Shown here: positions 7,752 through 63,672 of the stretch, in pieces
Numbering within the stretch: the stretch's first letter is position 1
Layout: each line of letters begins with the position of its first letter
Source of the DNA: Eledone cirrhosa
Taxonomy: Eukaryota
Direction: 5' to 3'
DNA length: 64,000 nucleotides
NCBI GenBank assembly: GCA_964016885.1
Contig: OZ024742.1
Location: 9,796,001-9,860,000, forward strand
The notes under the pieces: generated by a model
The model's database searches: none
Seen by the model: the letters and a program-made list of their open reading frames with translations, nothing else
Told to the model about the DNA's origin: nothing
Program-made: the position numbers and the translations under genes

Positions 7752-7923
7752 TAACAAAGGAATTGTGGTAAGGAACCAGATGGACCATAACGCACCAGAG
7801 TACTCAATACTTAGGGTAGTAGAGTGGGAAATAGGAAAAAATATGACGCCAACGGCTATTTCTGGACACAGAAATAGCCGTTGAAACGGCTTGAGCTCTG
7901 CCGTCGGGTTATATTTTTTCCTA
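7752..7923. mobile_element. Micro fold-back PLE-end fragment in (TA)n carrying the 3' half of a hammerhead
   Basis: 15-bp perfect stem 7850-7864/7869-7883; outer arms TAGGAAAAAATATGAC / GTTATATTTTTTCCTA; GAAA-CGGC..GCCG-TC at 7883-7905. Confidence 0.6.
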
Positions 7924-8009
7924 TATATATATATATATATATATTACATTATATTTTATATATTTAATATCACATATACATCCTTATATATATCTCTATC
8001 AAATACACT

Positions 8010-8220
8010 ATATAGACATAGATACATACATGTGTGTAGACATATATACATACGTGTGTGTAGACATACATACAAGTGTGTAGACATATACATACGTGTG
8101 TGTAGACATATATATACATACGTGTGTGTAGACATATATACATACGTGTGTGTATACATATACATACATACGTGTGTGTAGATATACATACAAGTGTGTA
8201 GACCTACATACATGTGTGTT
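8010..8220. repeat. Degenerate 22-28 bp repeat (CATACGTGTGTGTAGACATATA)
   Basis: Direct reading. Confidence 0.75.
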
Positions 8221-8582
8221 TATACAACGTCTTCATCTATAAAGATTCATTTATTTAACCCTCGTAATTCACTTCTTTTCATATCAGCTGCGTATTTCGA
8301 TTAATTCTGCCCATTTAACGCTATTTAAATTCACACTTTTTTCTCCATTACATTCTCGTTCTCTTTCAAAAGATCTCTTTCAGTAATTCTTATTTCTATA
8401 TTTCAACATTAACGGCTGTATTGGTTGATTATAAAGTTTAACTTAATATAGATGTGTGTGTGTGTACGTCTATAGATATGTATATATATATAATGGAAAA
8501 ATTTGAACAGGGACAAAACAGAGAGGCAGTACAACGAATGTTTATTAATTTCACGCTCTGGAGAGTGGGGTGTTGGTGGGGA

Positions 8583-8614
8583 ACGACGTTTCGGGCATAA
8601 GCCCTTCCTCAGGT
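8583..8614 (-). ncRNA. Minimal type I hammerhead motif (3' pLTR copy)
   Basis: Reverse complement reads CTGAGGA-A-GGGC-TTAT-GCCC-GAAA-CG-TC; stem I only about 2 bp. Confidence 0.7.
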
Positions 8615-10154
8615 GAGAAGTGTGTGGGAACAGAGTTCTAAGGGTGTGTAGGGGAGTGGTGGAGAGAAATATAGCGAAAGGAAACGGTGCGAATGAAAAC
8701 ATGAAAAAATAAAGATAAAAATAAAAATAAAGCATGATCAAAATACAAGGAATGAAATAAATTTAAATATAAAAGCATGATCCAAATAAACTGAAATTAA
8801 AAGGGGGTAAAACAGGTGGTGGAAGGGTGTGGGGTGTGTAGGGGTGGTGGCGGGTGGAGTGGGGAGAGGGAGACGGGGTGTCCGAGCGGGGAGGGCTGAA
8901 GGTGGTGTGTGTGTGTGTAGGTGTACGTGTGTGTGTGTGTGTGTGTGTGTGTGTGTATGTAAAAGTAAGGGTTGGGGGAAGAACGGTGTTGCATGTTCAG
9001 GAAGAGGTGTGTGTGTGGGGGGGTTGTGGGTCGGAGTGTCTGTGCGTGTGTGGATAGAGGGGTGGGGGGGTTGTGGGTCGGAGTGTCTGTGCGTGTGTGG
9101 ATAGAGGGGTGGGGGGAGAGGAATCAGGAGGCTGAGGGTGTAAATATGTGGTGGAAAGCACGTGTGTGTGGGGTTTAAGCGTGTTGTGGGTGTAGGTGGC
9201 GTGTGGAGAAAAATATTTTTTTGGGGTGCGTGTGGGTGAGTTATATAGGTGATTACGTAAGAGGATGGTTGAAAAGTAGGTAAATTTCAAAGGTGTTTAG
9301 CGGATTTTGTGTTGGTCAATTTCTGCGTGCGGGTATTCCATGAAGCGATGGTCGGAAGAGGAGAGATGTGGGGTGCGCGCGCAACAGGAAGTGGTCAAGC
9401 AGTGGGAGTGCTGTGTGTCTGTTTGTGCTGGGAGGTGGTCAGAGGGCATAGCAGCAGTCGGTGGAATGGTAAAGGGGCGAGTATGGGTAGGAGTGAAAGT
9501 TGGAGTGAGGAGGGTGTGTGTGTGTGTATTAGTAGAGGTGTTAGTGGGATGAGTGAGTATGGAGCGAGGGTGTGGGTGGAGCGGGGAGAGAAGGGTGTGT
9601 GTGGTTCTATGGAGGGAGTGTGGTGTACTGGTGTGTGTGTAGTTTGATGAAGGGGTGTTAGTGGGTGTTAGTATACGGGAGGTGGGGAGGAGTTGAATGC
9701 AGGTGTGAGTGGGGGTTAGTGGTGGTAGGGTGTGTAGAGTTGGTGGTGTACGAGGGTGTGTGGGTACGTGTGCGTGGGGTTGGGGGGTGTTAGTGATGTT
9801 AGTTGCGTGTGTGGTGGGTGGTGTAAGTGGGTGCGTGTGTTCGTGTGCTTGGGGTTAGGGGGTGTTAGTGAGGTTAGTTGCGGGGTGGTGGGATGGAGGT
9901 GTGGAGGTGAGGGTTAGTGGTGGTAGTAGGGTGTGTGTTTAGTGTGAGCGCGTGTATATATGTGCCGGTGGATGTGTGCGTGTGATAAGGAGGGGGGGGA
10001 GAAGAAGTGAGGGATGTTAGTATGTTAGTTGGGGAAGGGTGGTCAGATGAGGGGTGGAGTGGAGGTGTTAGCATTGTTAGTTGTGGGGTGGGCGGTGAAA
10101 GGGGGGGGGGGTGTTAGTGGGGGATAAGTGTGGGGGGAGGGGGGCGGTCGAAGG

Positions 10155-10445
10155 CTAAAGGAATAAGAGTGGGGAGTTCAGGCCGGGGGGAGTGTGGGTC
10201 TGTAAGATGAAGATAGTTCGTTGTTCGACCGTAAGGCGATTGGCGGGTGTTCCGTGGCACTGGAGTAGGCCACAGACTGTGAGATGGCGTGCGGAATGTC
10301 CAGGGCCACCAAAGTGGCGGGCGATGAGGGAACTATCCTGGAGGTGCTCAGTGAATCGGTCCGCCAGGCGACGTCCCGTCTGTCCGACATAAGTACGTAG
10401 ACTAGGTTGGAGGAGGTGCAGCGGAAGGCATGCCGGACAGAGCGA
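10155..10445 (-). pseudogene. GIY-YIG endonuclease fragment of a PLE
   Basis: FRCTSSNLVY / YVGQTGRRLADRFTEH / ARHF..GHS / EQRTIFILQTHTPPGLN; internal deletion with frameshift between LVY and YVG. Confidence 0.85.
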
Positions 10446-10856
10446 GTGGCCCACCCCTCTATCCACACACGCACAGACACTCCGACCTACAACCCCCCCA
10501 CACACACACCTCTTCCTCAACCCTTACTTTCACATCCACACACACACACACACACGTACACCTACACACACACACCACCTTCAGCCCTCCCCGCTCGGAC
10601 ACCCCGTCTCCATCTCCCCACTCCACCCGCCACCACCCCAACACACCCCACACCCTTCCACCACCTGTTTTACCCCCCTTTTTATTTCAGTTTATTTTGA
10701 TCATGCTTTTATATTTAATTTTATTTCATTCCTTGTATTTTGATCATGCTTTATTTTTATTTTTAATTTTAATTTCATTCGCACCGTTTCCTTTCGCTAT
10801 ATGTCTCTCCACCACTCCCCTACACACCCTTTGAACTCTGTTCCCACAAACTTCTC

Positions 10857-62400: not shown

Positions 62401-62520
62401 CTACAGCTACCCCCAACCTAACCACTACCACTATAACACTACCACAATCTCCACCATCACCACTACTATCACTACTACAGCTACCCCCAACGTCACCACT
62501 ACCACAATCTCCACCATCAC
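59480..62520. repeat. 74-bp minisatellite, about 40 copies
   Basis: Unit CCACCATCACCACTACTATCACTACTACAGCTACCCCCAACGTCACCACTACCACTATAACACTACCACAATCT; period checked between 59711 and 59785. Confidence 0.93.
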
Positions 62521-62737
62521 TACTACAACTATAACCACCACTACCATTACTACTACAACCACCACCAACAATAACCCTACGACTACAACCATAACTTCAC
62601 CAACCTCCACTAAAACCCCACCACCACCACCACCACCAACAACAACAACATCATCATCATCACCAAAACCACTACCAACATCATCATCACAAAAACCAAC
62701 AACAACAGAAGCTATATCAATAAATATAATAATGAAA

Positions 62738-62929
62738 ATAACCGTTTCTACTTTTGGCACAAGGCCAGCAATTACTCAGTGCATTACTGGTACTTTATTT
62801 TATCGACCCCGTAAGGATGAAAAGCAAAGTTAACCTCGGCGGGATTTGAACTCAGAATGGCAAGGGCCGTAACTCTATATTAGAAAGCATGGCGTCCGAC
62901 CCTCTACCGATACTTCCAATCCACCGCCC
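62738..62929 (-). mobile_element. Nin-core SINE (tandem copy 1)
   Basis: Reverse complement of the 7535-7718 family. Confidence 0.85.
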
Positions 62930-62941
62930 TATAATAATGAA

Positions 62942-63122
62942 AATAATTGTTTCTACTTTTAGCACAAGGCCAGCAATTACCAGTACATTACTGGTACTTT
63001 ATTGTATCGACCCCGTATGGATGAAAGGCAAAGTTAACCTCGGCGGGATTTGAACTCAGATCATAAAGGGACGTAACTATGCTGGAAAGCATGTCCGAGC
63101 CTCTACCGATACTGCCAATTCA
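62942..63122 (-). mobile_element. Nin-core SINE (tandem copy 2)
   Basis: Reverse complement of the 7535-7718 family; head-to-tail with copy 1. Confidence 0.85.
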
Positions 63123-63256
63123 CTGAAAATAATTATTAAAAACATGGGGTGATAATGAATGAGACGACAATGGTGACGTCATTATAACACTAAAGACAAC
63201 AATAAATATATAGAGTTCTGATATATATATATATATATATATATATATATATATAT

Positions 63257-63672
63257 AAAAGAATAGAGGTGTAACACACGAGTTATGATATATTGGTAAA
63301 CGGAAAAGAACATGCTGACAAATTGTTCACAGTGAAAAATAGTTTAATTAGGAATAAGTGAAAATTAGTAATAGTATTGTTTAGTATTCAGTTTTGGTTT
63401 TAAGTTTTACCGGTTTCGCATTTCTAATGCTTTTCAAAAATAATTTTGAGATAGAGCGTCCGTGATGTTTGCTCTAATCTGATTAGAGCAAACATCACGG
63501 ACGCTCTATCTCAAAATTATTTTTGAAAAGCATTAGAAATGCGCAACCATTAAAACTTAAAACCAAAACTGAATACTAACCAATACTATTACTAATTTTC
63601 ACTTATTCCTAATTAAACTATTTTTCACTGTGAACAATTTGTCAGCATTTTCTTTTCCGTTTACCAATATAT
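63257..63672. mobile_element. Fold-back palindrome (192-bp arms, 1-nt centre, about 30-nt tail) with degenerate hammerhead
   Basis: Arms 63288-63479 / 63481-63672 with a few mismatches; minus strand 63404-63442 reads TTGAAAA-GCATT-AGA-AATGC-GAA-ACCGGT-A. Confidence 0.8.

What the first reader, a model, noticed from the sequence alone, without database searches (positions are those of the whole stretch)
7752..63672. Graded family of hammerhead-bearing fold-back elements in (TA)n: MITE look-alikes that appear to be made by Penelope retrotransposition
Seen: nine inverted-repeat structures follow one plan, eight between (TA)n tracts and one next to a tract. Spacers between arms: about 3.3 kb (50.2-54.8 kb), 2.4 kb (11.2-14.3), 1.4 kb (8.5-11.0), 130 nt (56.4-56.8), 9 nt (54.9-55.35), 4 nt (7.75-7.92 and 57.24-57.44), 1 nt (63.26-63.67) and 0 nt (58.61-58.68). 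Nearly all contain or adjoin a whole or partial HHR pointing toward an element end, and most have one arm 30-90 nt longer. Established: PLEs carry minimal HHRs in pLTRs, often have an inverted 5' pLTR, and some clades insert in microsatellites. Inference: the short members are either products of a cDNA snap-back (self-priming) second-strand step or a non-autonomous hairpin retroelement class mobilised by PLE RT/GIY-YIG that repeat pipelines would mislabel as DNA MITEs.
Basis: partly seen in the sequence, partly recalled or inferred. Interest (0 to 1): 0.78.

Follow-up and report, generated by a model that had tools for sequence, protein, structure and literature searches.

The report
Penelope fold-back stumps, one tRNA-bearing
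The nine mirror-image repeats are ends of several different Penelope-type retrotransposon families sitting in TA microsatellites, likely rebuilt at each insertion rather than being a mobile hairpin family, and one of them comes from a short tRNA-containing repeat that likely borrows Penelope enzymes.

Summary
The nine inverted repeats are real, but they are not one family. They belong to at least seven unrelated repeat families. For five short ones, other genomic copies run on into longer parents. Three or four of these parents encode a Penelope-like (PLE) RT and/or GIY-YIG nuclease, so they are not DNA MITEs.

Folds vary between copies or recur at tiny hairpins already present in the parent (162 exact copies of the 63-kb fold). 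Both arms of a copy share subfamily variants, so each palindrome is likely built at insertion.

New constraint: at two fold hotspots the 30-40-nt tail lies on either side of the loop about equally (14:12 and 15:13). A plain one-primer snap-back does not predict this. The best fit is priming at both target ends plus fold-back (inferred).

The 57.2-kb element derives from a 260-bp ORF-less tandem unit carrying a tRNA-like sequence, with full PLE insertion anatomy and no hammerhead found. I did not find it described in the papers searched; no partner PLE was identified. Inverted pLTRs, tails and self-priming are already published.

The parts
7754..7925 (.). Short fold-back stump of a Hydra-type PLE 3' end: ~77-nt tail on the left, fold at 7865-7868, 3' half of a hammerhead-like motif (about 7883-7907, +) on the right; the left arm lacks the stem-III hairpin
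   Evidence: 11,758 exact tail matches; run-on copies L171, L181 reach a GIY-YIG domain, L170 an RT
8493..10978 (-). 5'-truncated PLE with inverted ends and no tail; GIY-YIG remnant at 10155-10523(-); minimal hammerhead cores at 8612(-) and 10859(+); Neptune-like by recalled motif only
11217..14286 (-). Hydra-clade PLE, 5'-truncated: RT part 13403-13993(-), GIY-YIG 12768-13445(-) with CxCx5C, CxxC and CxH; tail 11217-11302 on the long arm; hammerhead motifs at 11403(-) and 14186(+)
50207..54829 (+). Hydra-type PLE, broken: RT 50920-52043(+), GIY-YIG about 52300-52640(+); tail 50207-50300 on the SHORT inverted arm; hammerhead motifs at 50403(-) and 54727(+)
54897..55353 (.). Fold-back stump of a pLTR 82% like that of the 11.2-kb element; 9-nt centre; tail 55264-55353; hammerhead cores mutated in this copy
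   Evidence: L049 runs on to a GIY-YIG fragment 75% like the 11.2-kb one
56378..56833 (+). Truncated PLE end with a 128-nt inverted arm; hammerhead-like motif in the spacer (56574-56620, +); tail 56777-56833 on the long arm
   Evidence: 6,602 exact tail matches; parent GIY-YIG in run-on copies; RT in L222
57242..57437 (.). Fold-back stump of a 260-bp non-coding tandem unit that carries a tRNA-like sequence. This copy folds just before the tRNA body, has a 37-nt tail (57242-57278) and has lost ~50 nt of its left arm
   Evidence: (1,101 exact tail matches)
58487..58690 (-). Tail-less arm with a complete hammerhead motif (58579 to 58525, -) and a fold at a native CATATG; the other arm is cut off after 38 nt in this copy
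   Evidence: same fold in several loci; L268, L270, L278 run on through it
63258..63672 (.). Fold-back stump of a ~4.9-kb PLE with RT and C-terminal GIY-YIG; 30-nt tail 63258-63287; fold at the parent's native 6-bp hairpin, loop base 63480

Best explanation
The nine structures are insertions of several unrelated Penelope-like retrotransposon families in (TA)n tracts, and the short palindromes are likely made anew at each insertion when both arms are truncated near the element's 3' end. Shown: the arms are 3' ends of longer parents; folds vary or recur at hairpins native to the parent; both arms of a copy share subfamily variants; one arm ends at the tail end and the other at a fixed inner TA-like site; the tail lies on either side of the loop about equally. 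Inferred mechanism: the PLE nuclease cuts both strands of the TA tract, and each free end primes cDNA on the element RNA, one at the tail start site and one at the inner start site. One cDNA, either one, runs on, stalls at RNA structure, folds back on a few self-complementary bases and is copied back until it meets the other cDNA, which it can pair with. Host repair closes the junction, sometimes with templated filler. The 57.2-kb family is likely a passenger: a 260-bp tRNA-bearing, non-coding unit inserted by the same machinery in trans. Confidence that these are per-insertion PLE products is about 0.9; the value given is for the full two-primer-plus-fold-back mechanism.
For: Parents: 20 of 30 best hits of the 63-kb arm run on into a parent with the hairpin CTAATC-T-GATTAG at the fold; 6 fold there, 3 stop there, 1 joins a shorter arm. 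The parent repeats at ~4.9 kb and has an RT (Pfam RVT_1 E 8.7e-7, just under the cut-off) and GIY-YIG (E 0.009). Parents with GIY-YIG and/or RT were also found for the 7.7, 54.9 and 56.4-kb families. Recurrence: 162 exact folded junctions against 1,185 arms carrying the native hairpin, controls 0. At sites variant in >=4 of 30 folded loci, 54 calls are in both arms and 10 in one arm. Two distinct subfamilies of the 57-kb unit use the same 10-nt loop, each in both orientations. Polarity: tail on the native-loop arm 14, other arm 12, both 1, neither 3 of 30 (p=0.85); 15, 13, neither 2 of 30 in the 57-kb family. Arm divergence does not differ between the two classes (41/1790 vs 32/1647; 59/1190 vs 42/1049). 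The tail is on the shorter arm in 7 and the longer arm in 6 of 16 inverted 56-kb-family loci (3 equal). Fixed tail-less end: 12 of 16, 19 of 23 and 21 of 25 inverted loci in three families. Two 7.7-kb-family loci (L178, L192) join a bare tail to an inverted arm with no shared repeat. In vitro, a PLE protein cuts and extends both strands and starts at two sites that bound the tail (PMC11167929).
Against: Nothing here observes an intermediate; all mechanism steps are inferred from finished insertions. Near-equal arm lengths, expected from fold-back, are not significantly enriched in the one structurally unselected long-parent set (3 of 16, permutation p=0.07). One-arm differences are as numerous as shared ones (83 vs 84; 104 vs 82), and one difference beside a T run recurs on the native-loop arm in 5 loci, unexplained. 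Palindromes are unstable, so later deletion or centre inversion could give the same polarity and asymmetry. Samples are 30 loci per family, mostly the first on the largest contigs; the 55-kb and first 63-kb sets were ranked by likeness to the query. No partner PLE was found for the 57-kb unit. For 58.6 kb a coding parent was not shown (inconclusive).
Confidence: 0.55

Rival explanations
1. One primer only: the cDNA snaps back into a hairpin, and a nick at the tail boundary on either strand (or later centre inversion and one-sided deletion of the unstable palindrome) randomises which arm bears the tail.
For: Folds at native hairpins; arms share private variants; many near-equal arms in the 55-kb and 7.7-kb sets; PMC8557442 suggests the tail comes from nuclease-mediated resolution; one-arm deletions are common.
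Against: Both polarities are present among the youngest copies (3 of 4 loci with identical >=190-nt arms have the tail on the non-native arm), which argues against slow later flipping though not against nicking at insertion. It needs an extra, unobserved step. It does not use the two start sites seen in vitro.
Confidence: 0.22
2. Pure twin priming without fold-back: two cDNAs from the two target ends are truncated independently and joined end to end by microhomology, which is only possible at self-complementary spots.
For: Explains one tail, 50:50 polarity and unequal arms in both directions. Junction overlaps are mostly a few bases or filler. Twin priming is known for L1 (recalled).
Against: Arms of nearly equal length at many different positions in the 55-kb set (e.g. 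316/314, 297/303, 920/919; a ranked sample) and centres made of short self-copied pieces suit fold-back better. Locus-private variants are often in both arms.
Confidence: 0.15
3. The short palindromes are themselves mobile units (hairpin retroelements or DNA MITEs) that descend from a few founders.
For: Exact fold junctions recur 162 and 59 times; 13 of 23 inverted 7.7-kb-family loci are near-symmetric and about 170-200 bp; three 55-kb-family loci share one junction.
Against: Loop orientation relative to the tail is not fixed; several subfamilies fold at the same spot with their own variants in both arms; ends are unequal; the arms are 3' ends of RT/GIY-YIG elements; centres differ base by base. 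Secondary re-mobilisation of some palindromes is not excluded.
Confidence: 0.06
4. The palindromes are fold-back artefacts of sequencing or assembly.
For: Perfect palindromes between microsatellites are artefact-prone (own knowledge); no read or contig laid spanned the whole 63-kb copy.
Against: Arms differ by 1-12% and by a fixed tail. A short-read contig bridges the 63-kb fold (X1, 63446-63531, 5 gap letters; this run may be the assembly's own sample). Raw reads of another sample show the 57-kb family's fold (26 reads, 8 starts) and its tandem junction (34 reads, 10 starts).
Confidence: 0.02

Closest known systems
Canonical EN+ PLE insertions with inverted pLTR and tail (PMC3846280; PMC8557442)
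   Same: Partial tandems, an inverted 5'-truncated copy, a tail on one end, palindromes at the junction, self-priming proposed, (TA)n bias.
   Different: Here most copies of some families are reduced to 170-450-bp stumps; tails reach 77-94 nt; the tail-versus-loop polarity is counted (about 50:50), which the passages read do not report.
Hydra clade of PLEs (PMC8557442, section 11)
   Same: The 11.2-kb element has the CxCx5C linker, CxxC and CxH around the conserved E and N, C-terminal GIY-YIG, hammerhead motif and (TA)n target; the 50.2, 54.9 and 7.7-kb families match it by protein or pLTR similarity.
   Different: No RT tree was built; the 8.5, 56.4 and 63-kb families have other linkers (Neptune- or Nematis-like by recalled motifs).
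Poseidon PAc in vitro mechanism (PMC11167929)
   Same: Both target strands cut and extended; two RT start sites bounding the tail; AT-rich target.
   Different: That work does not address how the inverted arm forms (parts 1-2 of 4 read); different clade.
Non-LTR retrozymes (PMC7229834; bioRxiv 10.64898/2026.07.22.740005)
   Same: The 57-kb unit is short (260 bp), non-coding, tandem and likely PLE-dependent.
   Different: Retrozymes are defined by a hammerhead in each unit; none was found in the 57-kb unit, which has a tRNA-like part and inverted, tailed insertions. Schistosome SM-alpha (tRNA-related, with hammerhead; recalled) is the nearest hybrid.
tRNA-derived SINEs and Helenus/TRIMp3 (PMC10886601)
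   Same: tRNA-like sequence with conserved A and B boxes and a variable anticodon inside a non-autonomous retroelement.
   Different: SINEs use LINE enzymes and Helenus uses LTR enzymes; the 57-kb unit shows PLE-type ends, and its tRNA sits inside a permuted unit followed by a T5 run.
MITEs (PMC8969392)
   Same: Short, high-copy, inverted-repeat shape.
   Different: Unequal ends, variable centres and descent from RT/GIY-YIG elements.

Membership tests
EN+ PLE | RT and GIY-YIG nuclease in the element or its parent | tested here: met
   63-kb parent (Pfam scores just below cut-offs); 11.2 and 50.2 kb; 7.7-kb parent; 56.4-kb parent. Nuclease only for 8.5 and 54.9 kb. Pfam found no family at cut-off in the window's own PLE fragments.
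EN+ PLE | Partial tandem or inverted pLTR with a one-sided tail | tested here: met
EN+ PLE | RT phylogeny inside the PLE/TERT clade | not tested
   No reference RT set was held; motif reading only.
EN+ PLE | Hammerhead in the pLTR | tested here: inconclusive
   Motifs by own descriptor in 4 families, partial or variant in 4, none in 1; no Rfam hit; cleavage untested.
Hydra clade (11.2-kb element) | CxCx5C linker; CxxC and CxH flanking E and N; (TA)n target | tested here: met
   against the description
58.6-kb element as PLE | Coding parent | tested here: inconclusive
   Run-on copies exist; a GIY-YIG match in L268 is in the opposite orientation.
MITE | Equal terminal inverted repeats and fixed length | tested here: not met
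   One-sided tails, variable folds.
MITE | Fixed target-site duplication and a DDE partner | tested here: inconclusive
   (TA)n flanks hide any duplication; run-on parents carry RT/GIY-YIG, and no transposase search was run.
Independently mobile hairpin element | Fixed loop orientation and arm-specific variants inherited across loci | tested here: not met
   14:12 and 15:13 polarity; 54 both-arm vs 10 one-arm calls at common variant sites; one recurrent one-arm change noted.
Non-LTR retrozyme (57-kb unit) | Hammerhead in each tandem unit | tested here: not met
   None by relaxed descriptor on the doubled unit, both strands, or by Rfam.
tRNA-SINE (57-kb unit) | tRNA-derived part with A and B boxes | tested here: met
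   ARAGORN call in 10 of 12 loci (some overlapping; 0 of 5 control loci of the 7.7-kb family), Rfam tRNA 41.2 bits vs cut-off 29; boxes kept and anticodon changed in a diverged subfamily.
tRNA-SINE (57-kb unit) | 5' tRNA head, LINE-type 3' end, single direct copies | tested here: not met
   Permuted tandem unit; 15 of 21 distinct insertions inverted, 12 of those 15 with exactly one tail (counted by hand).
tRNA-SINE (57-kb unit) | Pol III transcription | not testable with these tools
   A T5 run lies 10 nt after the tRNA part; no RNA run was listed (searched with the 63-kb element).
PLE-dependent non-autonomous element (57-kb unit) | 3' end shared with an autonomous PLE | tested here: inconclusive
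   No partner among the 228 loci then held; a ~45-nt likeness to the 7.7-kb pLTR did not pass z>3.

The most novel reading that the evidence does not exclude
This genome holds a tRNA-bearing, hammerhead-less, non-coding 260-bp element that is spread by Penelope machinery, a PLE counterpart of SINEs and Helenus in which the tRNA-like part drives or processes the multimeric RNA. In addition, the even split of tail side versus loop orientation shows that PLE insertion engages both target ends, explaining how inverted pLTRs arise.
Probability: 0.5. Interest if true: 0.75.

Novelty: new variant of a known kind. Interest (0 to 1): 0.55.

Why it matters
How PLEs make their inverted arm and second strand is open. 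Thousands of stump insertions with an asymmetric loop give a countable rule (one tail, either side, arms from one source) that any model must meet and that an existing in vitro assay can test. The stumps are abundant (11,758, 6,602 and 1,101 exact tail matches for three families) and MITE-shaped, so automated annotation could mislabel them; whether it does was not tested. A tRNA-bearing passenger of PLEs would extend small-RNA-derived mobile elements from LINE and LTR partners to a third retrotransposon class.

Tried and rejected
Rfam found no hammerhead in the window, in 49.3-58.9 kb at E<=10, or in the 7.7-kb parent; its microRNA hits merely reflect hairpins. Pfam did not recognise the window's PLE fragments at cut-off. 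RNA folds of six hammerhead motifs gave z between -1.4 and +0.9. The 30 rows for the 57-kb family were dropped because mapping to a tripled unit made coordinates ambiguous; replace them. Enrichment of near-equal arms was not significant (p=0.07). The tRNA part is not better conserved than the rest of the unit (8/71 vs 24/186 mismatches in the most diverged copy). Homology between the 57-kb and 7.7-kb ends was not significant. No RNA holder was listed for the 63-kb element; this is no evidence on expression. Read depth across the 63-kb fold is ambiguous because reads fit both arms. An early idea that the 63-kb family has no hammerhead homologue was revised: it has a variant core with GCAA. Literature searches found no paper on tail/loop polarity, twin priming in PLEs, or a tRNA-bearing PLE-dependent element, judged from listings and the passages read. 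Repbase, Dfam and subscription journals were not searchable, and no supplements were read; the supplement of PMC8557442 and the repeat library of PMC13282606 may list these families. The organism was not determined; the octopus paper was read only as a possible comparator.
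Full report
Observation. The window is repeat-rich animal DNA from a 3.0-Gb assembly. All nine inverted repeats exist at the stated coordinates with 88-99% arm identity, eight between (TA)n tracts. 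A masked self-comparison gives 14 close inverted matches against 0-2 in 20 shuffles. They are not one family: only the 11.2 and 54.9-kb elements are clearly related (82%). Hammerheads are present at motif level in eight of nine families, complete in four; Rfam scores none.

The three long elements are truncated PLEs. [quoted passage not shown] The 50.2-kb element is a broken relative. The 8.5-kb element keeps a different GIY-YIG. The tail is on the long arm at 11.2 kb, on the short inverted arm at 50.2 kb, and absent at 8.5 kb.

The short elements are stumps of longer parents. Of the 30 best genomic hits of the 63-kb arm, 20 run on into a parent, 6 fold at the same place, 3 stop there and 1 joins a shorter arm. 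The parent repeats at about 4.9 kb and encodes RT and GIY-YIG. It carries a native 6-bp hairpin exactly at the fold. Exact patterns count 162 folded junctions and 1,185 arms with the native hairpin. The 7.7-kb family (11,758 exact tail matches) runs on to Hydra-type nuclease and RT; 23 of 30 unselected loci are inverted, mostly folding within a ~15-nt zone. The 56.4-kb family (6,602) has a coding parent and scattered folds, 16 of 30 inverted within 1.5 kb. The 54.9-kb family folds at many positions, often with templated filler. The 58.6-kb family folds at a native CATATG; a coding parent was not shown.

Mobile hairpin or made per insertion? In 30 unselected copies of the 63-kb fold, common variants occur in both arms 54 times and in one arm 10 times, and at least three subfamilies use the same fold. 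In the 57-kb family two distinct subfamilies use one 10-nt loop, each in both orientations. A founder hairpin would pass on one orientation and arm-specific differences. Against this reading: one-arm differences are as many as shared ones overall, one change recurs on the native-loop arm in 5 loci, and three 55-kb loci share a junction, so some secondary spread is not excluded.

Mechanism. The tail-less arm ends at a fixed inner site in 12 of 16, 19 of 23 and 21 of 25 inverted loci of three families, and the sequence shows a TA-like stretch there. The tail lies on the arm carrying the parent's loop orientation in 14 and on the other arm in 12 of 30 loci (both 1, neither 3), and in 15 versus 13 of 30 in the second family (neither 2). 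The two classes are equally diverged. A tail on the second arm cannot be copied from a tail-less first cDNA, so one-primer snap-back needs an added step. A PLE protein in vitro cuts and extends both strands and starts at two sites that bound the tail (PMC11167929; parts 1-2 of 4 read). I therefore infer priming at both target ends, fold-back of one cDNA at a self-complementary spot, and pairing of the returning strand with the other cDNA (0.55). A hairpin nicked on either strand or rearranged later (0.22) and pure twin priming (0.15; L1 precedent recalled) remain open. The direct test of fold-back in the one unselected long-parent set was not significant (3 of 16 near-equal arms, p=0.07).

The 57.2-kb family. 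Copies that run through the fold enter a 260-bp unit and return to its tail, forming partial tandems. ARAGORN calls a tRNA in 10 of 12 loci (some overlapping) and Rfam scores it at 41.2 bits against a cut-off of 29. A and B boxes are kept while the anticodon changes between subfamilies, and a T5 run follows 10 nt later. Of 30 tRNA-centred loci, about 21 are distinct insertions; 15 are inverted, and 12 of these have exactly one tail; none showed a shared longer continuation (counted by hand). Raw reads of another sample show both the fold and the tandem junction. No hammerhead and no partner PLE were found. PLE dependence is inferred from anatomy alone.

Comparison with what is known. Inverted pLTRs, one-sided tails, junction palindromes and a self-priming hypothesis are in PMC3846280 (passages) and PMC8557442 (passages and section 11), which also reports non-autonomous Chlamys elements. 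Retrozymes as PLE derivatives: PMC7229834 (passages) and bioRxiv 10.64898/2026.07.22.740005 (part 1 of 5). tRNA-bearing non-autonomous LTR elements: PMC10886601 (passages). MITE and PLE curation: PMC8969392 (passages). An octopus repeat annotation lists PLE, MITE and many unclassified SINE families without this anatomy in the passages seen (PMC13282606). Searches gave no report of the polarity rule or of a tRNA-bearing PLE passenger; repeat databases and supplements were not seen. An earlier AI note on another genome reached the same per-insertion reading; it is not independent evidence.

Verdict. The added value is a quantitative constraint on how the inverted arm forms and a candidate tRNA-bearing non-autonomous PLE. 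New variant of a known kind; interest 0.55.

Noticed in passing
window 660-5684 (+): L1/Tx1-type LINE with ORF1-like region, AP endonuclease and RT, interrupted by stops; a relative sits inside locus L282.
   Followed up: partly
window 24667-49089: 24.4-kb array of 24/36-bp units with higher-order structure and strong strand skew.
   Followed up: no
window 15567-17443 and 58889-62720: Further minisatellite arrays (22-24/46 bp; 43 and 74 bp).
   Followed up: no
window 7535-7717 (+), 62725-63123 (-), 18451-18559: Copies of a ~190-bp SINE-like repeat with A/B-box-like motifs, tandem at 62.7 kb; frequent in fetched loci.
   Followed up: no
window 63789-64000: A tenth PLE-like end after a (TG)n tract with a hammerhead core at 63908(-); the same end appears beside L044 and L092.
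   Followed up: no
window 49340-49430 and 14400-14500: Further hammerhead-core matches (49355 +, 14463 -) next to simple repeats, possibly older PLE remnants.
   Followed up: no
window 51774-52273: 248-bp tandem duplication (98%) inside the ORF of the 50.2-kb element.
   Followed up: no
window 15065-15299 and 23740-23975; 14835-15010 and 21721-21906: Two dispersed repeat pairs (90% direct; 68% inverted), not identified.
   Followed up: no
L009:1724-1840: The second arm of a 63-kb-family fold switches, at the hammerhead-like motif, into the end of a related family: template switch or later recombination.
   Followed up: no
L171, L183 (7.7-kb parent); 63-kb family: Hammerhead-like cores with U and A in place of the usual C3 and G8, a compensatory variant (recalled as functional); the 63-kb family mostly has GCAA for GAAA.
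   Followed up: partly
L022, L030, L041, L095, L111 and window 54.8-58.7 kb: Ends of different PLE families pile up side by side in one (TA)n tract, each new insertion splitting the tract.
   Followed up: partly
L241/L243 and L244/L246 (G000:C1 211.7-213.1 Mb): The same insertions with the same flanks occur twice, suggesting segmental duplication or haplotype duplication in the assembly.
   Followed up: no
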